NCBI GenBank assembly: GCA_964356815.1 | Contig: CAYHIR010000002.1 | Coordinates: 7,418 to 71,417, forward strand | DNA from: an uncultured Candidatus Saccharibacteria bacterium | GTDB taxonomy: Bacteria > Patescibacteriota > Minisyncoccia > Phycocordibacterales > DATGWK01 | Direction of reading: 5' to 3' | Length of the DNA: 64,000 nt | Shown: piece by piece, positions 6,253 through 55,337 of the stretch | Numbering within the stretch: position 1 is the first letter of the stretch | How the letters are laid out: every line of letters starts with the position of its first letter | Notes under the pieces: generated by a model | Database searches by the model: none | What the model was told of the DNA's origin: nothing | The model's input: only the letters and a program-made list of their open reading frames with translations | Translations under genes and position numbers: made by a program

Positions 6253-6433
6253 GCTTGTGTGATATTTATTAACTGATAATCGATGACTACATTCTAACAG
6301 ATTTTGCACGGATTTAAAAAAGTGGAGGAGGTTAATATTTTGCTTTTTTTGTAAACTGTGTTATTATCCTTTTAGAGCATGGGGGTTGGAAGTTCCAACA
6401 CTCAACCTTGTTTTTTACAGAAGGAGGTCTACT

Positions 6434-6952
6434 GTGCGCATGAATGAGGTTTGTCATCGGATGAATGACGAGAAACTGGATTTCCAAACATTTCTCATCG
6501 GCTGTCTTAGCCACGGTAAGCCTTTCCAAGATGAAGATACATCTGAGATGCTGGCTGTTCTCGAGCGTGATTGGGCACTTAAACAAAAACAATCTCTCGA
6601 GCAGGCTGAGCATGGTGCGCTCTTCGAAATGGCCGTTGAAGAGCTCGAGCAAAAGAAGACCCGGATCAAACGGAGGGTTGATTTGTTTGAAAAGACAATC
6701 AATGACTCGGGCTTGCTGACTGGTGGAAGCATCTTCACAAACGCAATCGAATGTCTAAGGGGCATTCATGGTGTGCAGGGGTTGAAGATAAGTTCAATCG
6801 GGTTCGATTCCGAAAAGTATAGACAACTAAAACTCGAGGAGCTGAAGAAGTTCCTCGGAAAAAGGTGTCGTACTCTTGAAGATGTCTGGCCCCACAGTGA
6901 CGGACCTCGTCAATTTGCTCGCGTGGTATACGAACTGGCACGCACAATCTAG
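6434..6952 (+). CDS. hypothetical protein (GC-rich cassette gene)
   Basis: SD AGAAGGAGG 6 nt before GTG at 6434 (ATG at 6440 is an alternative start). An extended -10 sits upstream and a weak hairpin plus T-run at about 6970-7010. No recognisable family. Confidence 0.45.
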   Translation: MRMNEVCHRMNDEKLDFQTFLIGCLSHGKPFQDEDTSEMLAVLERDWALKQKQSLEQAEHGALFEMAVEELEQKKTRIKRRVDLFEKTINDSGLLTGGSIFTNAIECLRGIHGVQGLKISSIGFDSEKYRQLKLEELKKFLGKRCRTLEDVWPHSDGPRQFARVVYELARTI

Positions 6953-7067: not shown

Positions 7068-7376
7068 TCCGCGATAGCTCAGCTGGTAGAGCGAGCGACT
7101 GTGAACAAAATCGCAGCTTCCCGAAGTAATTCGGGTTGAAAAACGAGGTTAATTGCTGGAAGCCCACCCGATCGAAAGATCGCGGGTAATCAGCAGCCGA
7201 GCCTGTCATTCGACAGGAAGGTTCAGAGACTATCCCTAACGGGAGTACTTGGCCGAAAGGTCTAGGAAACACCTCGCGCCCCATTTATTGGGGCGATGAT
7301 ATAGTCCATCCCTTTAAGAAATTTTAGGATCGATGTAATCGCTTGGTCGCAGGTTCGAGTCCTGCTCGCGGAGCCA
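7068..7376 (+). tRNA. tRNA-Asn (anticodon GUU) interrupted in the anticodon loop by a group I intron
   Basis: 5' half 7068-7102: acceptor TCCGCGA, D-arm GCTC/AGCTGGTA/GAGC, anticodon stem AGCGA, loop CTGT. 3' half 7336-7376: TAA, TCGCT, variable TGGTC, T-arm GCAGG/TTCGAGT/CCTGC, acceptor TCGCGGA, discriminator G, CCA. The spliced anticodon loop is CUGUUAA. Confidence 0.75.
7103..7335 (+). ncRNA. group I self-splicing intron (233 nt, no ORF)
   Basis: R element GTTCAGAGACTA (7221-7232) and S element GATATAGTCC (7298-7307) form P7. The 5' exon ends in U and can pair with intron GCAG (7113-7116) as P1. The terminal nucleotide is G (omega-G) at 7335. Confidence 0.7.
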
Positions 7377-7380
7377 AAAC

Positions 7381-7409
7381 TTGACTTTTCTATGAAAACC
7401 TGCTATCAT
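7381..7409 (+). promoter_or_regulatory. sigma70-like promoter TTGACT-N17-TATCAT
   Basis: Consensus spacing, immediately downstream of the tRNA and upstream of the ORF at 7479. Confidence 0.5.
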
Positions 7410-7478
7410 GGTAGTAGCGTTTTCCAGTACCTTGTAACCCCGGGTTTAAACAAACCCATAAGAACCAAAGGAGTAGCC

Positions 7479-7775
7479 ATGAATATCTCACTCACGGATC
7501 CAAAAACTCTCGTGATCAATGGAGAAGATACTGAGGTCGGAGAAGTCGCACGCGCTGTGGCAATCTTGATGGAAGAAGGAAAGATTCCAAAAGGTTGCAC
7601 ACTGAAGTATGGCGGGTTCTCCGGCAGTGGCGTTGCCCTGTGTGTAGCACTTTGCAACGTGGTCCGTGATTTTTTTGTGGTGTTCCCAGTTTGCGCTGAA
7701 CAACAGCCCGATGGGAAGTACCTCGTTCAGGCAAGTTTCGACCCTACCGTGAAAACCGGTGCGATCATTGACTAA
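7479..7775 (+). CDS. hypothetical small protein (GC-rich cassette gene)
   Basis: 98-aa ORF with SD AAAGGAG 5 nt before ATG. Good promoter upstream and a long hairpin terminator downstream. Confidence 0.45.
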   Translation: MNISLTDPKTLVINGEDTEVGEVARAVAILMEEGKIPKGCTLKYGGFSGSGVALCVALCNVVRDFFVVFPVCAEQQPDGKYLVQASFDPTVKTGAIID

Positions 7776-45988: not shown

Positions 45989-46516
45989 ATGAATCGCATG
46001 AACCTCGATAGAATGTATCAGATTCTTCAGGAAACCACTGTTCAGCTTCGAAAGGGCGAGGAAATCGAGGGCGACCCGAAACTCGTCGGTGCCGTCAAAA
46101 ACCTCAAAGAGGGCGACGACATCAGCAAACTCCCCGGCGGCGTGGTGCACATCTACGCCATGCCGCACGAGGCAGAAGCGAAGAATGGTGTTGAGAAAGT
46201 GGATTGCCACTTCATCATCATCGGTGTGGACAAAGCCAAAGCGAAGACGCACAAGGACGAACTCGTTGCCATCCTAAAGGACTGGCCCTCGGAAGCACAC
46301 GGTAGCACCATTCCAAAACTGTCGGAGGGTCCGAGCTACATCCATGTCGGTGGTGCGATCGGAAGCCAAGGGGCGGCGTTCCAGTTGTTCGCTCTCGGTA
46401 AGGTTCTCGGTCTCTGGGACATCATCACACCCGCAAAGCTCGGTATCACCGGACCTAATGCGGATCGGATGGCTGGTTCAGGATTCGTGATGATCGACGG
46501 TTTCAAGGCAGCATGA
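45989..46516 (+). CDS. hypothetical protein (GC-rich cassette gene)
   Basis: SD AAGGGAGA upstream. About 56% GC. Strong terminator downstream. No recognised family. Confidence 0.45.
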   Translation: MNRMNLDRMYQILQETTVQLRKGEEIEGDPKLVGAVKNLKEGDDISKLPGGVVHIYAMPHEAEAKNGVEKVDCHFIIIGVDKAKAKTHKDELVAILKDWPSEAHGSTIPKLSEGPSYIHVGGAIGSQGAAFQLFALGKVLGLWDIITPAKLGITGPNADRMAGSGFVMIDGFKAA

Positions 46517-46545: not shown

Positions 46546-46583
46546 AGGCGCACGACTCTCGAGTATGTGCGCCTTTTATTTTG
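46546..46583. terminator. rho-independent terminator (bidirectional, between convergent genes)
   Basis: AGGCGCAC-loop-GTGCGCCT followed by TTTTATTTT. Confidence 0.65.
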
Positions 46584-48885
46584 CCACCGCGACGGCCTCG
46601 TCAAATTTTATAGAAAGCAATTTTGAAATGCCGGTCGCCATCGTCACGCCATAAAGCACGCCAGCGCGCGACATTGTTTCGCGATTGTGGGTGATAAGAA
46701 TGAGTTGAGAAAGTTTGGAAAGATTTTCGATCATGTCGCCGTATTTGCGCGAATTGGCTTCGTCGAGAGCAGCATCGGTTTCGTCGAGAATAATAAACGG
46801 TGGCGGCTTCACCTGCGACATGGCAAAAATGAGCGCGATGGATGTGAGCGCGCGTTCGCCACCAGAAAGCATCATGAGACCCTTCACCTTTTTCTTCGGC
46901 AAAGAAACACTGATGTCGATGCCGATATCTTCTGCTTCATCGCCTTCCATTTCGCCCATCACACTCGCACTTGCAACACCGCCCGATTCTAAATTTTCTC
47001 CGTCTAAGAGAGACGACAAATCAGTATCGCGCTTTTTGTGCTTCACAGGCCGCGAGACATCGAGCGACGCTGAGCCACCACCAAACATAAGGGTGAAAAA
47101 GTTTTGAAATTGTTTATTTATTTTCTCAATTCCCTCTTTAAATTCTGTTTCGATTTTTTCTTCGAGTTCGTCGATGAGTTTTTTGAGCGACTCCGACGAC
47201 TTTTCCAAATCCTCTATTTCGCGCATTAAAAACGTGTCGCGTTCAGAAACCTCTCTGTATTCTTTGAGAATTTCATCGCTCGATCCGAGGCCGCTGTCTT
47301 CTAAGCGAATTTTTATTTTTTCTATCGCTCGTCGGCGGTCTGCTTGAGCGGCGCGAGATTCGGCGGCACTAGCGACACCCTCGCCCACTGCAATCTCAAA
47401 ATTTTCATAATCCAAAACTTCGCGGCCGATGAGAGCACCGGCTTCGCCGAGTTCACGTTTAAAATCTTCGGTTTCGATTTTGAGTGTCTCTTCGCGAGCA
47501 GAAAAAGTGGCGAGTTCGGCTGTGAGCTGATTTTTCTTGGCGTGAATTTCAAAAACTTTTTTCTCGGCTTCGCGATTGCTGTCTTTTTCTTTTTCAATTT
47601 CATCTTGGAGAGCAGAATATTTGGCGGAAATTTTTACCTCATCGGCAGACAAAGCGGCAGAAATGCGCTCGAGCTCGGCTTTGCGCGCCAAAAGTTTTTC
47701 AATAATTTCTTTTGAGTCGTTTTCTGAAGCTACACCAGCAGACGATCGACTGTGCTCAACAACAAACTTTTTAAACATTTCGCGCACCGTGGAAATGATT
47801 TTTCGCAGAGCATTGATGTCGTTTTCGTTCGCCGCAGAAGTAGTTGCGCTTTCTATTTGCTCGGTGATTTTTTTGAGTTCGGAAAGAGGGACGGTCTGCG
47901 TTTCGCTGGCTTCTGCCATCTCTTTTTGTTTGGCTTGTAAGCGTTTTTCAGCCGAAAGCTCGCCTTCTACCTGGCCGAGCTCGCGAGCACGGGCGTCGCG
48001 TTCGGTGCGGATAGCGCGTAAATTTTCTTCGAGGGCGATTATTTCTTTGCTCTTGGCATCGAAAGTTTTTGATGATTCAAGAATCGTTTTTGCGGCCGCA
48101 AATTCTTTTTCGAGCCTGCGGAGCTCATCTAGTGCAGGCTTTTTTTCGTAATCAATTCGCACCCGCTCGCTGTCGAGAAAAATCTTTTCACGCTTGAAAT
48201 ATTCTTTGTAGAGCAATGCGAGCTGGGATTTTTGTTCTATCGCCTGCTCCACTTTTTCGACCTGTTTTTTGAGAAATTTGAGATGCGGCAAAATTTCGCG
48301 ACGCAAAGATTCTACGGACTTAATATTTTCCTCCGTTTTTTCGAGCTTTCGCTCGCTCTCTTGCCTTTTGTATTGATAAATTTTCAAGCCAAGCGCCTCT
48401 TCGATCATACTTTTGCGCTCTTTTGGATTGGAATTGAGCACGCGATCAGCTTCACCTTGAGAAATAATGTGGTGTCCTGATGGACCAATGTGCGCCACAG
48501 AAAGAAGCTCGATCACATCGCGAAGACGCACCACCGAGCCGTTGATCAAATATTCATTTACACCATCGCGATACACAATGCGCTCCACAGACACTTCGTC
48601 AAAATCAACATTCAAAAAACGGCGAGAATTATCGAAAATGATTTTCACTGCCGCGCGATTGCCGCGTGCTGAGTCGCCGCTACCGTTGAAAATGAGATCT
48701 TCACCTCTCTTACCACGCAAAGATTTTATAGATTGCTCGCCAAGTACAAAACGAAATGCCTCCGCGATATTTGATTTGCCCGAACCGTTTGGACCGACGA
48801 CAGCCGAAATTGGCACATTAAAATGAAGCTCGCTCTTTTTGGCGAAAGATTTGAAACCCGAAATTTCGAGAGACTTTAAGTACAT
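46576..48885 (-). CDS. smc: SMC-family chromosome segregation ATPase (short, 769 aa)
   Basis: N-terminal Walker A GPNGSGKSN, long coiled coils, C-terminal signature LSGGERALTSIALIFA and D-loop ILDETDAALD. Confidence 0.75.
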   Translation of the reverse strand: MYLKSLEISGFKSFAKKSELHFNVPISAVVGPNGSGKSNIAEAFRFVLGEQSIKSLRGKRGEDLIFNGSGDSARGNRAAVKIIFDNSRRFLNVDFDEVSVERIVYRDGVNEYLINGSVVRLRDVIELLSVAHIGPSGHHIISQGEADRVLNSNPKERKSMIEEALGLKIYQYKRQESERKLEKTEENIKSVESLRREILPHLKFLKKQVEKVEQAIEQKSQLALLYKEYFKREKIFLDSERVRIDYEKKPALDELRRLEKEFAAAKTILESSKTFDAKSKEIIALEENLRAIRTERDARARELGQVEGELSAEKRLQAKQKEMAEASETQTVPLSELKKITEQIESATTSAANENDINALRKIISTVREMFKKFVVEHSRSSAGVASENDSKEIIEKLLARKAELERISAALSADEVKISAKYSALQDEIEKEKDSNREAEKKVFEIHAKKNQLTAELATFSAREETLKIETEDFKRELGEAGALIGREVLDYENFEIAVGEGVASAAESRAAQADRRRAIEKIKIRLEDSGLGSSDEILKEYREVSERDTFLMREIEDLEKSSESLKKLIDELEEKIETEFKEGIEKINKQFQNFFTLMFGGGSASLDVSRPVKHKKRDTDLSSLLDGENLESGGVASASVMGEMEGDEAEDIGIDISVSLPKKKVKGLMMLSGGERALTSIALIFAMSQVKPPPFIILDETDAALDEANSRKYGDMIENLSKLSQLILITHNRETMSRAGVLYGVTMATGISKLLSIKFDEAVAVAK

Positions 48886-48940: not shown

Positions 48941-49639
48941 CTAAAACTTTTTCGTCGTAAGCGCCTTTTCGGCCGCCGCTTGTTCGGCATCTTGTTTTGA
49001 TTTGCCTTCACCGGTCGCCACGAGTTCACTGCCGAGATACACACCGACGGTAAACTTTTTATCGTGATCAGGACCGGTCTCCTTCATTGTACGATATACA
49101 GGGGTCTGACTGGTAGCATCTTGTGCTTGTTCCTGAAAAAGACTTTTCGAGTCAATCCACTCACCTTTTTTAATAATGTCTTCAATGAGCGGTGAAATGT
49201 TGTCTAAAATAAATTTTTTAACCACGTCAAAACCCTGATCCATATAAATCGCGCCGATTATTGCTTCGAGAGTGTTGGCTAAGATAAATTGACGAGCCCG
49301 ACCTTCGGAATCTTTGGCCTCGCCGCGAGAAAGACGGAGAAAATCATTCACTTCGAGCTCTGTAGCTACGTGTGCGCAAGTGGTGGCATTTACGAGCGCC
49401 GAACGGTAGGCAGTGAGATCGCCTTCGTTGGCCTTTGGATATTTTTTGTAAAGAAAATCGGTAATAACGAGCTCGAGTACTGCATCACCCAAAAATTCGA
49501 GGCGTTCATTATGATCGTTCGCGGTGTCTTTGTTTTCGTTTATAAAAGAGCGGTGCGTAAAAGCCTGCTCTAAAAGAGCCTTGTTTTCAAAAGATATACC
49601 AATCTTTTTTTCAAAAATTCCGAAATCAATCTGAATCAT
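48941..49639 (-). CDS. rnc: ribonuclease III
   Basis: ERLEFLGDAVLEL signature plus a C-terminal dsRBD. Confidence 0.9.
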   Translation of the reverse strand: MIQIDFGIFEKKIGISFENKALLEQAFTHRSFINENKDTANDHNERLEFLGDAVLELVITDFLYKKYPKANEGDLTAYRSALVNATTCAHVATELEVNDFLRLSRGEAKDSEGRARQFILANTLEAIIGAIYMDQGFDVVKKFILDNISPLIEDIIKKGEWIDSKSLFQEQAQDATSQTPVYRTMKETGPDHDKKFTVGVYLGSELVATGEGKSKQDAEQAAAEKALTTKKF

Positions 49640-49643
49640 AAAC

Positions 49644-50543
49644 CTATTTTTTCAATAAAATATTTATAGCTTTTGTAACGATCGGTAAAATGTCGTTGTA
49701 AAAATTGAGATCGAGAATGTCGGCGAGCTTAAACCACTTTGCGTCGTCGAGACCACCGTTGCCTTCTTCGAGCTTTAGATCTGTGAACTTTGCTTCGGCG
49801 AGGAAATACATAACGTGCTTTTTCTTTTTGCCAGTTTCAGGATGAAACGCAATGTATTCGTTTTCGCCGAGTTTTTCCTTTATCTCCACATCGAGACCAA
49901 TCTCCTGCTTAAGCTCACGCTTGGTACCGGCATCATCGGCCTCCCCTGGCTCAATATGGCCCTTAGAAAGCGTCCAGTGGCCGAAAACGTCGTGAACGAG
50001 CGCTAGATAAATGTCGCCCTCGTGGTGAGCATATACGATAGCGCCGCCCAATTTTTCCACCGGAAGCTGATCATCGGGCACGTCTTTAAATTTCTTTTTT
50101 TTTGAGACTTCGTTTTTGCCCGGCTCGCCCATTTCCTTATAAACAGCACCGAGCACGCCGTTTACAAACTTACTACTCGTGTCGCCACCAAAAGTTTTTG
50201 CAAGCTCGATAGCTTCGTTGATGGCAACCTTCGGCGGCACTTCTTTATGGTCGGCAAAAATGAGTTCGTACAAGCCGAGTCGAAGAATATTTCGATCAAC
50301 GACAGAAATTTTTTCTAGTGGCCACTCAGGAGCGGCTTTGACAATAATATTGTCTAGATCGGGCTTTTTGCGAAAAACCTGACGCATCAGATTTTCCATA
50401 AAAGAAAAATCGTTCATTCCAGGAGCGAATTCCTGGACGTTTCGAGAAAAAATCTCCATAGCCTCGGCTTCAGTTTTGACGTTGAAGTCGGCTTCGAAAA
50501 GTGATTGTACAACTATAGATCTTGCAAGGTGTCTATTTGCCAT
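49644..50543 (-). CDS. nusB: NusB-like antitermination domain fused to a C-terminal NUDIX hydrolase domain
   Basis: N-terminal 140 aa are NusB-like (ARSIVVQSLFEADF...FVNGVLGAVYKEM). C-terminal domain has the Nudix box GHIEPGEADDAGTKRELKQEIGL. Confidence 0.7.
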   Translation of the reverse strand: MANRHLARSIVVQSLFEADFNVKTEAEAMEIFSRNVQEFAPGMNDFSFMENLMRQVFRKKPDLDNIIVKAAPEWPLEKISVVDRNILRLGLYELIFADHKEVPPKVAINEAIELAKTFGGDTSSKFVNGVLGAVYKEMGEPGKNEVSKKKKFKDVPDDQLPVEKLGGAIVYAHHEGDIYLALVHDVFGHWTLSKGHIEPGEADDAGTKRELKQEIGLDVEIKEKLGENEYIAFHPETGKKKKHVMYFLAEAKFTDLKLEEGNGGLDDAKWFKLADILDLNFYNDILPIVTKAINILLKK

Positions 50544-50610: not shown

Positions 50611-50838
50611 CTACGCCCTAACCTTGGCCTTCTCCTTAACCTTTTTGGCCTTTTTAGCGAGCTTGGCGGCCATATCTATGACCTTTTTACCCCTATACAT
50701 GCCGCAATTTAAGCAAACCGCATGAGGGAGCTTTGAGGCTTTGCAATTTGTACATGTCAAAAACTGACCAGCCTTTAAAGCGTGATGGGATCGGCGGTTG
50801 CCGGTATGGGATCTAGTTGAACGCATTCTGACTACCAT
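50611..50838 (-). CDS. rpmF: 50S ribosomal protein L32 with lysine-rich C-terminal tail
   Basis: RSTRSHTGNRRSHHAL plus the CxxC...CxxC zinc ribbon. Confidence 0.75.
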   Translation of the reverse strand: MVVRMRSTRSHTGNRRSHHALKAGQFLTCTNCKASKLPHAVCLNCGMYRGKKVIDMAAKLAKKAKKVKEKAKVRA

Positions 50839-50887
50839 GGGTTGGATTGTACACGATTATTTAATAAAGACAATGCTCACAGCAGAA

Positions 50888-51000
50888 AGTATGACTGAAG
50901 TAACCGGCGTAGATTTCTACTGAAATCTCGCCTCACTCGGAGCCGCCTACGCGGCTTCCGAGAGTTACTTCAGTCATACTTTCTGCTGTGGCCACTAGTT
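50888..51000. repeat. 113-bp nested palindrome: 27-bp perfect inverted repeats enclosing two internal hairpins
   Basis: Arms CACAGCAGAAAGTATGACTGAAGTAAC / GTTACTTCAGTCATACTTTCTGCTGTG. Internal AGATTTC/GAAATCT and CTCGGAGCCGC/GCGGCTTCCGAG hairpins. Confidence 0.6.
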
Positions 51001-51053
51001 ATTAAAATAATTGTTAAAAAACTGGCAAGAAAAAACTCCCTGGGTCCACGGAC

Positions 51054-51377
51054 TCAGGGAGCTTGGTTCAAATTGCACAGGAGACCTTGGCCACTGTGGC
51101 GTTGGTCGAACAGGTGAAGCTTCGGGGGAGCTCTGGACCGGCGTGGAGAGAAAATGCGAGTTGACAACACACGGCTCCTACTCATTGAGAGTTTGGAGCT
51201 CTCACTCTCACGGTTAGGAAATTGCCATTCAGCAACCCCCTTTCCGCCGTAAGAGTATCGCAGCAAGGGACAGAACGCCCAATCTTCAGTGATGTATCCC
51301 GCCACTGCCCCAGGAGCAACGAAAATGAGGCAGATTGCCGGAAACAATGCATCGACGATGCCAGATGTATCGATCAC
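51054..51377 (-). CDS. hypothetical small protein with hydrophobic N-terminus (GC-rich cassette gene)
   Basis: GTG start preceded by AAAGGAGGAAGG. TTGACA-N16-TAAATT promoter overlaps the rnhB 3' end. About 56% GC. Confidence 0.35.
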   Translation of the reverse strand: MIDTSGIVDALFPAICLIFVAPGAVAGYITEDWAFCPLLRYSYGGKGVAEWQFPNRESESSKLSMSRSRVLSTRIFSPRRSRAPPKLHLFDQRHSGQGLLCNLNQAP

Positions 51378-51478
51378 AACCTTCCTCCTTTCTGTGTCTG
51401 AGGTTAATGGTCAAGATGACGACAGAAAACGCTAGAGAACGCGCCTAGTAAAGAAATTTACTCCAAAAGATTTTTCTG

Positions 51479-52123
51479 TCAAGTAAAATTTTTCACAAAA
51501 CTCCTCCGATGCAAATCGCAGAGGCCATTTTCGCGGATTTTTTTAATATGAAAACTGGTGCCATAACCCTTGTGTTTTTCAAAACCAAACTCGGGATAAA
51601 TTTTGGCGAGCTTGCACATTTTTCTGTCGCGCAAAACTTTGGCCGCGATGGAAGCCAAAGAAATTATTGGTTCGAGTCGGTCACCGCCGCTAATTGTTTC
51701 TTGAAATAAAAAATATTCGGGCGCTTTGAGGCCGCCGTCAAGCAGAATAAGTGTCTGACTCGGATTAAGATTGAGCCTGTCGAGAGCACGACGCATGGCG
51801 AGAGAGATGGAATGAGTCAGACCGTGAGTGTCAACTTTTTCTGCGCCAACAAATGCCACGCGAAAATCGAGCAGACCATCGCGCTGACCAATGCGAATTT
51901 TTTTAAACCATTCGTCGCGAGCATCTGGTGAAAGTTGTTTTGAATCGCGAGCTTGACGGAAATTTTTGGGCAATTTACCCACCGCAAAAACCATCGCGCC
52001 AACTGCAACCGGCCCTGCGAGTGGACCACGGCCAACTTCATCGACACCAACGATGTATTTGATTTGACTTGGCTTTTGTGTTTTAAAAATGAGGCGCATA
52101 CGATTAGTGTATAATTTTATCAT
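51479..52123 (-). CDS. rnhB: ribonuclease HII
   Basis: VGVDEVGRGPLAGPV active-site motif. Confidence 0.85.
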   Translation of the reverse strand: MIKLYTNRMRLIFKTQKPSQIKYIVGVDEVGRGPLAGPVAVGAMVFAVGKLPKNFRQARDSKQLSPDARDEWFKKIRIGQRDGLLDFRVAFVGAEKVDTHGLTHSISLAMRRALDRLNLNPSQTLILLDGGLKAPEYFLFQETISGGDRLEPIISLASIAAKVLRDRKMCKLAKIYPEFGFEKHKGYGTSFHIKKIRENGLCDLHRRSFVKNFT

Positions 52124-55100
52124 GTCTCGTTTTACACACCTGCATGTCCATAGCCATTACAGCTTGCTCGAAGCGGTACCAAAAATCTCGGATCTAATAG
52201 AGAACGCGAAAAAGTTTGACATGAAGGCGCTGGCTCTTACAGACAATTGCAATCTCTATGGCACGATTGAGTTTTATAAAGAATGCACAGCGGCTGGTAT
52301 AAAGCCGATCATTGGCATTGATGCTTATGTGGCGCCGCGAAGCAGACTGAGTAAAGAAAATATGGTGGATGCAACCCGCAGCCGTTTGATTCTTTTGGCA
52401 AAAAATGTGACGGGTTATAAAAATCTCATCAAGCTCGTCACAGCCGCACACTTCGAAGGTTTTTACTACAAACCGCGTATTGATAAAGAATTAATTGAGA
52501 AATACAAAGATGGTCTCATCGCTATTTCAGCCGCCACAAACGGAAGCATTGCCCGTGCCTTAAAAAGCGACGATCGCGAACGCGCCACAGAAGAAGCCAG
52601 ATGGTACAGCCACACTTTCGGACCGGATAATTTTTTTATCGAAATCACCGAGCCAGCCAAAATGAAGTCGCTCATCGATTTTGCACACGAAGTTGGCGTG
52701 CCGATTGTTGCTTCGCAAGATGTCTACTACATCCACGAAGATGATCGCGCCGCTCGCAATACCCTTCTCTCGATTCAAAATACAAATTGGGGCAATCACG
52801 GCGATATTGGCAACGAAGAGGAAGACTTATCTTTCGGTTCGCCGGAAAAAATTGCGAAAAATTTTGAGAAAATTTTGGGCGCGGAAGCGGCGGAACAGGC
52901 CATCGCAAACAACGAAAAAATCGCAGCTATGTGCGACTTGAAACTCGAGCTTGGTAAGTGGCTGTTTCCGGCATTTGTGGTTGAAAGCGGTCTCTCGCAC
53001 GACGATGAGCTTCGCCGGCTCGCATATGAAGGTTTGGAAAGACGCGGTATGGAAAAATCGCCCGAGGTGCTCACGCGTCTCGAGTATGAGCTCAAGGTTA
53101 TTAAAGACAAAGGTTATGCGCCGTACTTTTTGGTGGTGGGCGACCTCATGGATTTCGCGCATAAAAATAATATTCTCACGACCATTCGAGGTTCGGTCGC
53201 TGGCTCACTCGTCACCTACTGCGCGCACATTACAAACGTCGATCCGCTCAAATATAAATTGCCTTTCGAGCGATTTCTAAATCCCGAGCGTCCATCTGCT
53301 CCCGATATCGACATGGATTACGCCGACAACAGACGTGATGAAATGATTGCCTATGCCAAAGAAAAATATGGCCACGACAACGTCGCCCAGATTGGTACAT
53401 TCGGTACGATGGCGGCGCGCGGTGCTGTGCGCGACGTGACACGCGCGCTCGGCTATCCTTACACACTCGGTGACACACTTTCCAAACTCATTCCGATCGG
53501 CGCGCAGGGTTTCCCAATGACCATCGACCGCGCACTCAAAGAAGCGCCAGACTTTGCAAAAATGTACAAAGACAATGAAGACGCGACAGACATTATCGAC
53601 ATGGCGAAAAAAATCGAAGGCGGTGCGCGACACATTTCCGTGCACGCCGCGGGTGTCGTTATTTCTCCCGTGCATCTCACCGAGCTCGTGCCGCTACAGT
53701 ACGACACAAAAAGTGCGGAAAATATTATCACTCAGTACGACATGTATTCGGTGGAAGAAGCCGGCCTTTTGAAGTTCGACTTTCTTGGCATTAAAAATTT
53801 GGCCATTCTCGCCGACGCTGTGCGCTTGGTGAAAAAGCTCGATGACATAGAAATCGACATTGAAAACGTACCGATAGACGACAAAAAAACTTTTGAAATG
53901 CTCGCGCGCGGCGAAACGATCGGCCTTTTTCAGCTAAATGGTTCGGGTATGACAAAATTTTTGAAAGAATTGAAACCGAGCTCCATCCTCGACATCAATG
54001 CCATGGTCGCCCTCTATCGTCCTGGCCCGATGGAATCTATCCCTCAATATATTGAACGCAAACACAATCCCGCGCTCGTCACCTTCCTCGATCCACGTCT
54101 CAAAGATATTTTGTCGCAATCGTACGGCGTCATCACCTATCAAGACGATGTGATGCTCACCGCTATTCACCTCGCCGGCTACTCGTGGCTCGAGGCCGAC
54201 AAACTCCGCAAAGCCATGGGTAAAAAAATTCCCGCGGAAATGGAAGCCCAGAAAGGCAAATTGCTCGAAGGCTTGGTGAAAAACGGTCTGAGCGCCGCCA
54301 AAGCCGATCAGCTATGGAAACTCATCGAACCTTTTGCCGCTTATGGTTTCAACAAAGCTCATGCCGCAAGCTACGGCAAAGTGGCCTATCAAACCGCCTA
54401 CATGAAGGCCAATTTTCCGGTCATTTATATGTCTGCTGTGCTCACCGCCGACTCTGGCGATGTGGATAAAATCGCCGAAACAATCGCCGAGTGTAAGCGC
54501 ATGAAAATTCCGGTTTTGCCGCCGAGCGTCAATGAAAGCTTTTCTGAATTTACGGTGGTGCGGGAAAGTGCGCAAAAAAACGTCGCGGGTGGCACTGACG
54601 GCGCCGAAAAAATCCGCTTCGGTCTTTACACAATAAAAAATTTCGGTGAGACAGTTGGCGAAACGATAATCACCGAGCGCGAGAAAAATGGCCGCTTCAC
54701 ATCTATCTCGAATTTTTTGAATCGCATCAAAGATAAAAATTTAAATAAAAAATCACTTGAGTCGCTTATTAAAACCGGGGCACTCGATGAATTCGGCGAA
54801 CGCGGGCTTCTTCTTGGCAATCTCGATCGTCTGCTTGCCTACAGCAGAGAAAAACATCGCGGACCAGAAAATCAAGAGTCACTTTTCGGCCTCATGACCG
54901 ATCAAAAAGCGGCGAGTGCCATGAGCGACATTTCTCTCGACCCAGCGCCACCTGCGACACAAGAAGAAAAACTCGCCTGGGAACGCGAACTCCTCGGCCT
55001 CTATGTTTCCGGCCATCCACTTGATCGTTTCAAAGAAAAAATTGAAAAACACGGCGGCTCGATTGCCAAGGTGAAAGAGAGCGGCATCAACGGCTCGACG

Positions 55101-55337
55101 ATCGTCGTCGCTGGCCTCATCGAAGAAATAAAAGAATTTAGCACCAAAAATGGCGAGATGATGGCCTTCATAAAAATCGCCGACTACTCCGGCAACATGG
55201 AAGCTGTCGCCTTCCCCCGCACCAAAACCGAATTCGCCTCCATCCTTGTGGCGGAAAATTGCGTGGCGATAAAGGGAAAAATGTCCAACAGAAACGGCGT
55301 GCCGAGTGTTTTGATTGAGAAGGTGAAGGTGTTGTAG
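52122..55337 (+). CDS. dnaE: DNA polymerase III alpha subunit (DnaE-type, PHP domain)
   Basis: PHP motif HLHVHSHYSLLEA, polymerase core and OB domain; 1072 aa. Its ATG overlaps the divergent rnhB ATG (CATG). Confidence 0.85.
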   Translation: MSRFTHLHVHSHYSLLEAVPKISDLIENAKKFDMKALALTDNCNLYGTIEFYKECTAAGIKPIIGIDAYVAPRSRLSKENMVDATRSRLILLAKNVTGYKNLIKLVTAAHFEGFYYKPRIDKELIEKYKDGLIAISAATNGSIARALKSDDRERATEEARWYSHTFGPDNFFIEITEPAKMKSLIDFAHEVGVPIVASQDVYYIHEDDRAARNTLLSIQNTNWGNHGDIGNEEEDLSFGSPEKIAKNFEKILGAEAAEQAIANNEKIAAMCDLKLELGKWLFPAFVVESGLSHDDELRRLAYEGLERRGMEKSPEVLTRLEYELKVIKDKGYAPYFLVVGDLMDFAHKNNILTTIRGSVAGSLVTYCAHITNVDPLKYKLPFERFLNPERPSAPDIDMDYADNRRDEMIAYAKEKYGHDNVAQIGTFGTMAARGAVRDVTRALGYPYTLGDTLSKLIPIGAQGFPMTIDRALKEAPDFAKMYKDNEDATDIIDMAKKIEGGARHISVHAAGVVISPVHLTELVPLQYDTKSAENIITQYDMYSVEEAGLLKFDFLGIKNLAILADAVRLVKKLDDIEIDIENVPIDDKKTFEMLARGETIGLFQLNGSGMTKFLKELKPSSILDINAMVALYRPGPMESIPQYIERKHNPALVTFLDPRLKDILSQSYGVITYQDDVMLTAIHLAGYSWLEADKLRKAMGKKIPAEMEAQKGKLLEGLVKNGLSAAKADQLWKLIEPFAAYGFNKAHAASYGKVAYQTAYMKANFPVIYMSAVLTADSGDVDKIAETIAECKRMKIPVLPPSVNESFSEFTVVRESAQKNVAGGTDGAEKIRFGLYTIKNFGETVGETIITEREKNGRFTSISNFLNRIKDKNLNKKSLESLIKTGALDEFGERGLLLGNLDRLLAYSREKHRGPENQESLFGLMTDQKAASAMSDISLDPAPPATQEEKLAWERELLGLYVSGHPLDRFKEKIEKHGGSIAKVKESGINGSTIVVAGLIEEIKEFSTKNGEMMAFIKIADYSGNMEAVAFPRTKTEFASILVAENCVAIKGKMSNRNGVPSVLIEKVKVL

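What the first reader, a model, noticed from the sequence alone, without database searches (positions are those of the whole stretch)
49644..50543. NusB antitermination domain fused to a NUDIX hydrolase, adjacent to RNase III
Residues 1-140 are NusB-like. Residues about 160-299 carry a canonical Nudix box (GHIEPGEADDAGTKRELKQEIGL). The fusion is a single uninterrupted ORF; there is no stop or frameshift between the domains. NusB is normally a standalone rRNA antitermination factor. A covalently attached Nudix domain would place a pyrophosphohydrolase activity in the antitermination complex or at nascent rRNA. RppH-like RNA 5'-pyrophosphohydrolase activity is a possibility.
Basis: partly seen in the sequence, partly recalled or inferred. 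Interest (0 to 1): 0.55.

Follow-up and report, generated by a model that had tools for sequence, protein, structure and literature searches.

The report
NusB fused to a Nudix domain
This gene really does encode the rRNA transcription factor NusB joined to a Nudix domain, a fusion shared by hundreds of ultra-small Paceibacteria, but the Nudix catalytic residues are lost in about half or more of the relatives while its nucleotide-binding residues stay fixed, so the domain more likely binds a nucleotide or RNA 5' end than acts as an obligatory hydrolase.

Summary
Window 49644-50543 (-) is one 299-aa ORF with three parts: a true NusB domain (aa 1-140), a disordered Lys-rich linker (aa 141-162) and a Nudix domain (aa 163-299). 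RNase III starts 4 nt after its stop codon.

It is not an assembly artefact. At least 591 species-level genomes of Paceibacteria/Parcubacteria encode the same fusion. Even 33-39%-identical versions keep rnc immediately downstream.

The Nudix box is not strictly canonical here, because the third Glu is Gln213. It is also poorly conserved across the family:
- Only 24-41% of non-redundant members keep all catalytic residues.
- The 'RE' glutamate (window E210, equal to RppH E53) switches at least 49 times on the tree.
- The phosphate- and adenine-binding-type residues (K194, Y230, K242, Y282) are nearly invariant.

My best reading is a NusB whose tethered Nudix module binds a nucleoside polyphosphate, probably the 5' end of the nascent rRNA leader, in RNase III-coupled rRNA maturation. 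Hydrolysis would be optional. This is inferred, not shown.

I found no paper describing the fusion. I rate it a new variant of a known kind, of moderate interest.

The parts
49644..50543 (-). nusB-nudix fusion gene (299 aa plus stop codon)
   Evidence: The ORF is listed. Pfam finds both domains. More than 8000 database homologues were found, and the top 120 all carry both domains.
50124..50543 (-). NusB domain, aa 1-140
50058..50123 (-). Flexible Lys-rich linker, aa 141-162 (PGKNEVSKKKKFKDVPDDQLPV)
   Evidence: AF2 pLDDT is below 50 for aa 142-152, and pTM is 0.52. The family median length is 22 aa with 25% K+R, and mean pairwise identity is 0.41. The translation was checked.
49647..50057 (-). 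Nudix-fold domain of ApnA-hydrolase type, aa 163-299
49893..49961 (-). Nudix box, aa 195-217: G195 x5 E201 x7 R209 E210 L K Q213 E214 I G216 L
   Evidence: The translation was checked. It deviates from the consensus at Q213. Family-level variability of the box is shown.
48941..49639 (-). rnc (RNase III), probably co-transcribed; starts 4 nt after the fusion's stop codon
   Evidence: Pfam PF14622, PF00636 and dsrm. It lies immediately downstream of the fusion in all 80 related loci and in the three most divergent fusions.
50611..50838 (-). rpmF (ribosomal protein L32), upstream neighbour on the same strand
   Evidence: Pfam PF01783. The synteny is conserved.
46576..48885 (-). smc (769 aa), downstream of rnc on the same strand
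   Evidence: Pfam SMC_N. The synteny is conserved.

Best explanation
The gene encodes the NusB subunit of the Paceibacterial rRNA transcription and processing complex.

Its N-terminal domain is an ordinary NusB. I infer that it pairs with S10/NusE and binds BoxA in nascent pre-rRNA.

A flexible, Lys-rich tether of about 22 residues carries a Nudix domain derived from an ApnA (Ap4A/Ap6A) hydrolase. Selection has kept this domain's nucleoside-polyphosphate pocket: the His/Lys phosphate clamp before the box, the Tyr and Lys on the L5 loop, and a second stacking Tyr. The Mg-binding catalytic glutamates are only facultatively retained.

I infer that the conserved job of the module is to bind a purine nucleoside polyphosphate. 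The most likely ligand is the 5'-triphosphate or Np4-capped end of the rRNA leader that NusB is already holding. This would assist the leader handling that precedes RNase III cleavage, and rnc is encoded immediately downstream.

In variants with an intact or nearly intact box, possibly including this one (only E213Q), the bound 5' end may also be hydrolysed to a monophosphate.

Shown here: the architecture, the conservation of the fusion, its subfamily affinity, the pattern of relaxed catalytic against fixed binding residues, and the rnc linkage.

Inferred: the identity of the ligand, the S10 and BoxA partners, and the role in rRNA maturation.
For: 1. True NusB:
- TIGR01951 equivalog above its cut-off.
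- F126, equivalent to the BoxA-contacting F122, is invariant (PMC3177189).

2. Real and ancient fusion:
- At least 591 species genomes.
- 148 clusters (50% identity) at E<=1e-30, many of them full-length fusions, the most distant at 33% identity.
- All named sources are Parcubacteria/Paceibacteria lineages.

3. Two independent domains on a disordered tether.

4. The Nudix domain belongs to the ApnA-hydrolase clade by sequence and by fold.

5. Catalysis is relaxed:
- The full set E201/R209/E210/E213/E214 is present in only 41%, 24% and 12% of representatives filtered at <90%, <70% and <50% identity, and in 41 of 80 species loci.
- Column 210 takes 80 parsimony steps (81st percentile) with at least 49 E/non-E switches.
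- Proteins 96% identical differ E against K at this position.
- The equivalent RppH E53A mutant is inactive (PMC6061791).

6. Binding-type residues are fixed:
- K194 94%, Y230 88%, K242 83%, Y282 93%, W190 93%, D185 91% and W270 96% in representatives below 70% identity. They take 3-12 parsimony steps.
- They align with the His/Lys/Tyr/Lys P1-phosphate site and the stacking Tyr residues of Ap4A hydrolases (PMC4734340).

7. Link to RNase III:
- rnc overlaps or lies within 30 nt of the fusion in 37 of 71 loci.
- It stays adjacent in the most divergent fusions even though their upstream genes differ.
- A standalone-NusB relative has neither a Nudix nor an rnc neighbour.
- In E. coli, nus defects are suppressed by rnc mutations, and the antitermination complex boosts co-transcriptional RNase III cleavage (PMC4807359; bioRxiv 10.64898/2026.03.17.712431).

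8. Precedent: CF Im25 is a Nudix protein that binds Ap4A, does not hydrolyse it, lacks two box glutamates and works in RNA processing (PMC2425470).
Against: - No ligand, partner or activity was measured.
- The box is not random. E214 is kept in 82-93% of members, E201 and R209 in about 72-90%, and 24-41% keep the full set. Some lineages may therefore be true enzymes, perhaps including this one, which lacks only the third Glu. From memory, Harris et al. 2000 found that this substitution in MutT lowered kcat only about 25-fold.
- Some Nudix enzymes place their general base outside the box, so loss of E210 need not abolish all activity.
- The residue equivalences rest on sequence alignment to solved structures.
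- The NJ tree is crude, so the number of switches is approximate.
- I could not check whether these genomes hold a second NusB, an RppH, ApaH or SuhB, or whether their rRNA leaders have a BoxA.
Confidence: 0.4

Rival explanations
1. The Nudix domain is an active RNA 5'-pyrophosphohydrolase or decapping enzyme, acting on pppRNA or Np4A-capped RNA. NusB delivers it to nascent rRNA, and catalysis is its selected function.
For: - The window protein keeps E201, R209, E210 and E214.
- 24-41% of the family keep the full set.
- The clade's relatives include enzymes that act on RNA 5' ends: Dcp2 matches the domain profile at about 5e-12, and RppH itself is a Nudix enzyme.
- NusB would place the domain on the rRNA leader.
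Against: - The RppH-E53-equivalent Glu is absent in 55-82% of the non-redundant sets and flips between near-identical proteins. RppH E53A is inactive (PMC6061791).
- The box is less conserved than the rest of the domain, 0.43 against 0.53. This is the opposite of what active Nudix families show.
- RppH family models are far below their cut-off, 26 against 118 bits.
Confidence: 0.25
2. The domain senses or hydrolyses free nucleotides (Ap4A/ApnA, ATP/GTP or an alarmone). This tunes NusB and rRNA synthesis to the cell's nucleotide or stress state. No RNA 5' end is involved.
For: - The closest relatives are free-ApnA hydrolases.
- The adenine- and phosphate-binding-type residues are fixed.
- CF Im25 binds Ap4A with a Kd of 2.4 uM without hydrolysing it (PMC2425470).
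Against: - AF2 shows no fixed contact between the two domains (disordered linker, pTM 0.52), so there is no obvious route for allosteric control of NusB.
- The tight rnc linkage points to RNA handling rather than metabolite sensing.
- There is no direct evidence either way.
Confidence: 0.15
3. The Nudix fold is a protein-protein adaptor, a SuhB-like bridging module. It docks NusB/S10-BoxA onto RNA polymerase, NusA/NusG or RNase III. The pocket residues would then be conserved for structural or interface reasons.
For: - In E. coli an enzyme-fold protein, SuhB, bridges NusB/E-BoxA to RNAP (PMC4807359).
- The C-terminal helix LNFYNDILPIVTKAINILL is extremely conserved among close relatives.
- rnc is apparently translationally coupled to the fusion.
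Against: - The residues that stay fixed down to about 33% identity are the ones that bind substrate in Ap4A hydrolases.
- The C-terminal helix sequence is not conserved in distant fusions.
- No interaction data exist.
Confidence: 0.12
4. The fusion is fortuitous. A housekeeping Ap4A hydrolase gene became joined to nusB and is now decaying, with no functional link between the two halves.
For: - Catalytic residues are being lost repeatedly.
- The two domains do not contact each other in the model.
Against: - The domain is retained full-length in at least 591 species with very small genomes and down to 33% identity.
- About 15 non-catalytic positions are nearly invariant. That is purifying selection, not decay.
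Confidence: 0.05
5. An assembly or sequencing artefact joined two separate genes.
For: None was found.
Against: The same ~300-aa single ORF occurs in independent assemblies from NCBI, JGI, ENA and Logan. These include contigs of about 1 Mb and 80 distinct species genomes with ORF lengths of 296-333 aa.
Confidence: 0.01

Closest known systems
NusB (transcription antitermination factor; TIGR01951 / PF01029)
   Different: Known NusB proteins are standalone and 130-160 aa long. This one carries an extra 160 aa (tether plus Nudix domain) and is encoded directly upstream of rnc.
ApnA hydrolases of the Nudix superfamily (Thermus Ndx1 Ap6A hydrolase, Aquifex Ap4A hydrolase, Chlamydia CT771, NUDT2)
   Same: These are the best sequence and structure matches over the whole domain. 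They share the xWTxxKG motif before the box, a Tyr 13 residues after the box as in Ndx1, a Lys on loop L5 and a C-terminal stacking Tyr.
   Different: Those are free-standing enzymes with strictly conserved box glutamates. Here the domain is fused to NusB, and the 'RE' glutamate is among the fastest-evolving positions in the protein.
CF Im25 / NUDT21
   Same: It has a Nudix fold that binds Ap4A/ATP but does not hydrolyse them. It lacks box glutamates, including the second one, and it acts in RNA processing (PMC2425470).
   Different: It is eukaryotic, acts in 3'-end processing, is a dimer that recognises UGUA, and has no relation to NusB. Its box loss is fixed rather than polymorphic across the family.
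RppH (bacterial RNA 5'-pyrophosphohydrolase)
SuhB in the E. coli rRNA antitermination complex
   Same: It is an enzyme-fold accessory component that works with NusB/NusE-BoxA in rRNA maturation linked to RNase III (PMC4807359).
   Different: It has a different fold (inositol monophosphatase) and is a separate polypeptide. A bridging role for the Nudix domain is only a hypothesis.
RsmB/Sun (NusB-like N-terminal domain fused to a 16S rRNA methyltransferase)
   Different: The N-domain here is a true NusB and not the RsmB type: RsmB models score 50 bits or less against cut-offs of 269 or more. The partner domain is a Nudix, not a methyltransferase.

Membership tests
NusB (TIGR01951 / PF01029) | Sequence match above the curated family threshold | tested here: met
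   TIGR01951 scores 120.9 bits against a cut-off of 88.35. PF01029 scores 114.3 bits against 23.1.
NusB (TIGR01951 / PF01029) | All-helical NusB fold | tested here: met
NusB (TIGR01951 / PF01029) | Conserved BoxA-contact aromatic in helix 7 (NusB F122) | tested here: met
   F126 aligns with Aquifex F122 (offsets). It is invariant in the family. Its role is described in PMC3177189.
NusB (TIGR01951 / PF01029) | Forms a heterodimer with S10/NusE and binds BoxA RNA | not testable with these tools
   This needs biochemistry. No rRNA leader was present in the fetched DNA.
NusB (TIGR01951 / PF01029) | Single-domain protein of about 130-160 aa | tested here: not met
   The protein is 299 aa and carries an extra Nudix domain.
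Nudix hydrolase superfamily (PF00293) | Alpha/beta/alpha Nudix fold | tested here: met
Nudix hydrolase superfamily (PF00293) | Nudix box GX5EX7REUXEEXGU with all four glutamates | tested here: not met
   The window protein has Q213 at the third Glu. Family-wide, the full set is present in only 24-41% of non-redundant members.
Nudix hydrolase superfamily (PF00293) | Mg2+-dependent pyrophosphohydrolase activity | not testable with these tools
   This needs an enzyme assay.
ApnA (Ap4A/Ap6A) hydrolase subfamily of Nudix | Closest sequence and structure relatives are ApnA hydrolases | tested here: met
ApnA (Ap4A/Ap6A) hydrolase subfamily of Nudix | Phosphate-binding His/Lys before the box, a Tyr and Lys downstream of the box, and a second stacking aromatic residue | tested here: met
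   H189, K194, Y230, K242 and Y282 align with these residues (PMC4734340, PMC2425470). K194, Y230, K242 and Y282 are 83-94% conserved. H189 itself is variable (H/K/Y/F).
ApnA (Ap4A/Ap6A) hydrolase subfamily of Nudix | Hydrolysis of Ap4A/Ap5A/Ap6A | not testable with these tools
   This needs an assay. Loss of the catalytic Glu in many members argues against it as a family-wide property.
RppH (RNA pyrophosphohydrolase; NF001936 and related models) | Sequence match above the curated family threshold | tested here: not met
   NF001936 scores 26.2 bits against a cut-off of 118. The other RppH models score 14 bits or less.
RppH (RNA pyrophosphohydrolase; NF001936 and related models) | Conserved catalytic Glu (E. 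coli E53, box position 16) | tested here: inconclusive
   It is present in the window protein as E210. In the family it is present in only 18-45% of the non-redundant sets (30% at <70% identity) and in 42 of 80 species genomes.
RsmB-type NusB-like domain fusions | Sequence match to RsmB family models and a C-terminal methyltransferase domain | tested here: not met
   RsmB models score 24-50 bits against cut-offs of 269-540. There is no methyltransferase domain.

The most novel reading that the evidence does not exclude
In Paceibacteria, NusB has acquired a built-in, largely non-catalytic nucleotide or 5'-end reader, a pseudo-Nudix module. It captures the 5'-polyphosphate or Np4-capped end of the nascent rRNA leader, or an ApnA alarmone. 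It thereby does part of the looping and bridging job that a separate enzyme-fold protein, SuhB, does in E. coli. This would couple rRNA transcription, RNase III processing and nucleotide status in one polypeptide.
Probability: 0.2. Interest if true: 0.7.

Novelty: new variant of a known kind. Interest (0 to 1): 0.5.

Why it matters
NusB is one of the most conserved and best-studied bacterial transcription factors, and it is normally a single small domain.

A whole major lineage of uncultivated, ultra-small bacteria has fixed a version that carries an ApnA-hydrolase-derived domain and is encoded directly upstream of RNase III. That suggests their rRNA transcription and processing machinery is built differently from the E. 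coli model.

The pattern found here, with binding residues frozen and catalytic residues drifting, is a natural experiment in an enzyme turning into a binding module. It yields concrete tests:
- which 5'-end or nucleotide ligand the domain binds;
- whether it helps RNase III processing;
- whether it substitutes for factors such as SuhB that reduced genomes may lack.

There is also a practical point. Public annotation calls all of these proteins simply 'NusB', which hides the extra domain.

Tried and rejected
- Assembly artefact: rejected.
- RppH membership: rejected on HMM thresholds and structural ranking.
- Split-gene check: a standalone-NusB relative (P0195, L081) has no Nudix or rnc neighbour. 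The short 'Nudix-only' and 'NusB-only' database entries look like fragments, or like true standalone NusB from other lineages.
- Literature: three searches found no paper that treats a NusB-Nudix fusion or NusB in CPR bacteria.
- BoxA and rRNA leader: no rRNA genes occur in the window or in about 1 Mb of fetched related DNA. Loose BoxA pattern hits there are scattered and uninformative.
- Promoter and terminator scan of the operon: hit counts were at chance level.
- Second NusB or Nudix in the window: none. The whole genome could not be checked.
- AFDB fold search, intended to find the architecture in other phyla: the library was unavailable.
- NusB proteins with long low-complexity tails (P0265, P0269, P0250): only weak, non-significant colinear similarity to the Nudix C-terminal half. 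Not used as evidence.
- Compensatory acidic residues when E210 is lost: none is obvious in the box patterns.
- Co-folding the fusion with RNase III: considered but not run. The tool returns no inter-chain confidence or coordinates, so the result could not have been evaluated.

Full report
**Observation**

Window 49644-50543 (minus strand) is one uninterrupted ATG-initiated ORF of 299 aa. Pfam places NusB (PF01029) at residues 7-136 (E 6.7e-33) and NUDIX (PF00293) at residues 186-283 (E 6.2e-13). The quoted box GHIEPGEADDAGTKRELKQEIGL is encoded at 49893-49961, aa 195-217.

The neighbours on the same strand are:
- rnhB at 51479-52123 and rpmF at 50611-50838, upstream;
- rnc at 48941-49639, starting 4 nt after the fusion's stop codon;
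- smc at 46576-48885.

All four were confirmed with Pfam. dnaE is divergent at 52089-55337. The observation therefore stands, with one correction. Measured against GX5EX7REUXEEXGU, the third glutamate is Gln213, so the box is near-canonical rather than canonical.

**Not an artefact, and clade-wide**

A search of 5.8 billion proteins saturated at 8000 hits. The best 120 are 68-87% identical (one 251-aa fragment is 100% identical over 84% of the query) and mostly about 300 aa long, and 119 of them carry both Pfam domains in the precomputed annotation. They come from independent NCBI, JGI, ENA and Logan assemblies, including contigs of about 1 Mb.

Their titles name Kaiser-, Lloyd-, Adler-, Zambryski-, Taylor-, Campbell- and Nomurabacteria, Paceibacteria and Minisyncoccia. 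A profile of the most divergent fusions again found only Parcubacteria-type names: Giovannoni-, Niyogi- and Nomurabacteria and Paceibacter. One protein carried a 'Marinimicrobia' label.

An exhaustive search of 1.84 billion cluster representatives gave 148 clusters at E<=1e-30. Many of them are full-length fusions, the most distant at 33% identity. Every source that names the protein calls it simply 'NusB'. No paper in the library discusses the fusion.

**What the two halves are**

The N-terminal half is a true NusB:
- It exceeds the NCBIfam equivalog cut-off, 120.9 against 88.35 bits.
- NusB F122 stacks on BoxA U8, and F122D is defective in vivo (PMC3177189). It corresponds to F126 (alignment offsets), which is invariant in the family.

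The C-terminal half is a Nudix fold of the ApnA-hydrolase type, not the RppH type:
- A profile of the domain matches Aquifex Ap4A hydrolase over its full length (E 1.8e-21). Next come Thermus Ndx1, Chlamydia CT771 and the C. elegans and human Ap4A hydrolases, then Dcp2.
- RppH family models score 26 bits against a cut-off of 118.

The two domains are each modelled with high confidence. They are joined by a disordered, Lys-rich linker: aa 142-152 have pLDDT below 50, and pTM is 0.52. Across the family the linker has a median length of 22 aa and is 25% K+R. The Nudix domain is therefore tethered to NusB, not docked on it.

**The unexpected part**

In active Nudix families the box is the best-conserved segment. 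Here it is the opposite.

In 257 full-length family members the mean pairwise identity is 0.63 for NusB and 0.53 for the Nudix domain. For the box it is only 0.43, about the same as the disordered linker at 0.41.

The complete catalytic set (E201, R209, E210, E213, E214) is present in 41% of representatives filtered at <90% identity, 24% at <70% and 12% at <50%. It is present in 41 of 80 species genomes.

The 'RE' glutamate, E210, is box position 16, the same position as E. coli RppH E53. The E53A mutant of RppH is inactive in vitro and in vivo (PMC6061791; motif residues 38-60).
- In the family it is replaced by V, K, G, N, A or S in more than half of the non-redundant sets (55% at <90% identity, 70% at <70%) and in 38 of 80 species genomes.
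- Proteins 88-96% identical differ at this site, for example P0006 (E) against P0007 (K) at 96% identity.
- On a neighbour-joining tree the column needs 80 parsimony steps (81st percentile of all columns) and at least 49 E/non-E switches.

By contrast a set of residues outside the catalytic core is almost frozen. D185, W190, T191, K194, Y230, K242, Y246, W270 and Y282 are each 83-96% conserved among representatives below 70% identity. They need only 3-12 steps, the 3rd to 15th percentile.

By alignment to solved Ap4A hydrolases, K194, Y230, K242 and Y282 correspond to known substrate-binding residues. These are the Lys just before the box and the Tyr and Lys of loop L5, which hold the P1 phosphate, together with the two aromatic residues that sandwich the adenine (PMC4734340; PMC2425470). 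H189 aligns with the His of that phosphate site but is itself variable (H/K/Y/F). Y230 lies 13 residues after the box, the same spacing as in Ndx1.

The simplest reading is that ligand binding is under strong selection and hydrolysis is not.

The window protein itself retains E201, R209, E210 and E214 and has Q at 213. That state is rare, seen in about 5 of 257 sequences (4 with Q213 in the patterns listed). From memory, Harris et al. 2000 (Biochemistry 39:1655) found that the equivalent MutT E56Q mutation costs about 25-fold in kcat, against about 10^4.7-fold for E53Q. This copy could therefore still be a weak enzyme.

**Genomic context**

All 80 related species loci show dnaE | rnhB-rpmF-nusB/nudix-rnc-smc. 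In 37 of 71 loci rnc overlaps or lies within 30 nt of the fusion's stop codon, and in 53 of 71 it lies within 150 nt.

In the three most divergent fusions examined (33-39% identity), the upstream genes differ: murB-rpmF, leuS and dnaX. Even so, rnc is still immediately downstream, with a 4-nt overlap, a 3-nt gap and a 20-nt overlap respectively.

A standalone 152-aa NusB from another lineage, about 56% identical over the NusB part, has neither rnc nor a Nudix gene nearby. The nusB/nudix-rnc pair is therefore the conserved unit.

This fits established biology. E. coli nusB and nusA defects in 30S biogenesis are suppressed by rnc mutations. Nus factors loop BoxA to RNA polymerase (PMC4807359). 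[quoted passage not shown]

**Most likely mechanism**

My confidence in this model is about 0.4.

- Shown: a genuine NusB; a flexibly tethered ApnA-hydrolase-type Nudix domain; conserved pocket-type residues with facultative catalytic residues; an operon-like linkage to RNase III.
- Inferred: NusB-S10 binds BoxA in the nascent rRNA leader. The tethered domain binds a purine nucleoside polyphosphate, most plausibly the 5'-ppp or Np4-capped end of that same leader. The basic tether helps on the RNA. This holds or marks the leader during formation of the helix that RNase III cuts. In box-intact variants the 5' end may additionally be converted to a monophosphate.

**Rivals**

- A truly catalytic RppH-like or decapping enzyme (0.25).
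- A sensor or hydrolase of free ApnA or NTP that modulates NusB (0.15).
- A SuhB-like protein-protein adaptor (0.12).
- A fortuitous, decaying fusion (0.05). This is contradicted by retention in at least 591 reduced genomes and by the invariant non-catalytic sites.
- An artefact (about 0).

**Comparison with known systems**

- The protein is a member of the NusB family in every tested feature except domain count.
- It is a member of the Nudix fold superfamily and of the ApnA-hydrolase clade by sequence and structure. It fails the strict box definition, and its activity is untested.
- It is not an RppH by family thresholds.
- Functionally, the nearest precedents are three. CF Im25 is an Ap4A-binding, non-hydrolytic Nudix protein in RNA processing (PMC2425470). 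SuhB is an enzyme-fold accessory factor of the rRNA antitermination complex. RsmB is a NusB-like domain fused to an rRNA-modifying enzyme.

**Novelty and score**

The architecture has been sitting in public databases since at least the RIFCSP genomes, under the name 'NusB'. It appears undescribed in the literature searched. The relaxed-catalysis and fixed-pocket pattern and the invariant rnc coupling are new observations made here.

I rate it a new variant of a known kind, with interest 0.5. It is a clade-defining modification of a core transcription factor with a testable, non-obvious function, but it is a domain fusion of two familiar modules and no mechanism has been demonstrated.

**Limits**

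- No whole-genome check was possible for a second NusB, SuhB, RppH or ApaH.
- No rRNA leader or BoxA was available.
- The tree is a simple NJ tree.
- The AFDB library was unavailable.

Noticed in passing
window 7093-7328 (+): There is a Group I catalytic intron here (Rfam RF00028, 70.9 bits, E 5.6e-16). ARAGORN and Rfam find no tRNA or rRNA gene anywhere in the window. The intron lies between ORFs 6386-6952 and 7392-7775, so its host gene is unknown.
   Followed up: partly
window 46576-48885 (-): The SMC protein is only 769 aa. The Pfam SMC_N match spans residues 2-752, and no hinge-domain family was reported. The related loci have SMC matches of the same short length. This may be a shortened or hinge-less SMC typical of this clade.
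   Followed up: no
window 50839-51478: A gap of about 640 bp between rnhB and rpmF has no convincing ORF. A permissive Rfam search found nothing credible (best hit 27.5 bits, E 0.17, to a plastid element). The corresponding spacer varies from about 50 to about 3500 bp in the related loci.
   Followed up: partly
proteins P0265, P0269, P0250: These are NusB proteins of 268-345 aa from AT-rich genomes. They have a long Lys/Glu-rich low-complexity insert and a C-terminal tail. The tail shows only weak, non-significant colinear similarity to the C-terminal half of this Nudix domain and has no Nudix box. They may be an extreme, box-less remnant.
   Followed up: partly
protein P0229: This 142-aa standalone Nudix protein has an N-terminal half that looks like an ordinary MutT-type Nudix with a canonical box. 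Its C-terminal half is nearly identical to the NusB-fused family. It may be a recombinant or a chimeric assembly.
   Followed up: no
loci L002, L015, L019, L020, L041: In a minority of related genomes, 0.5-1.4 kb of extra DNA, apparently an inserted gene, separates the fusion from rnc. I did not examine what is inserted.
   Followed up: no
window 45989-46516 (+): A 175-aa ORF lies convergent with smc and has no Pfam match at E<=0.001.
   Followed up: no
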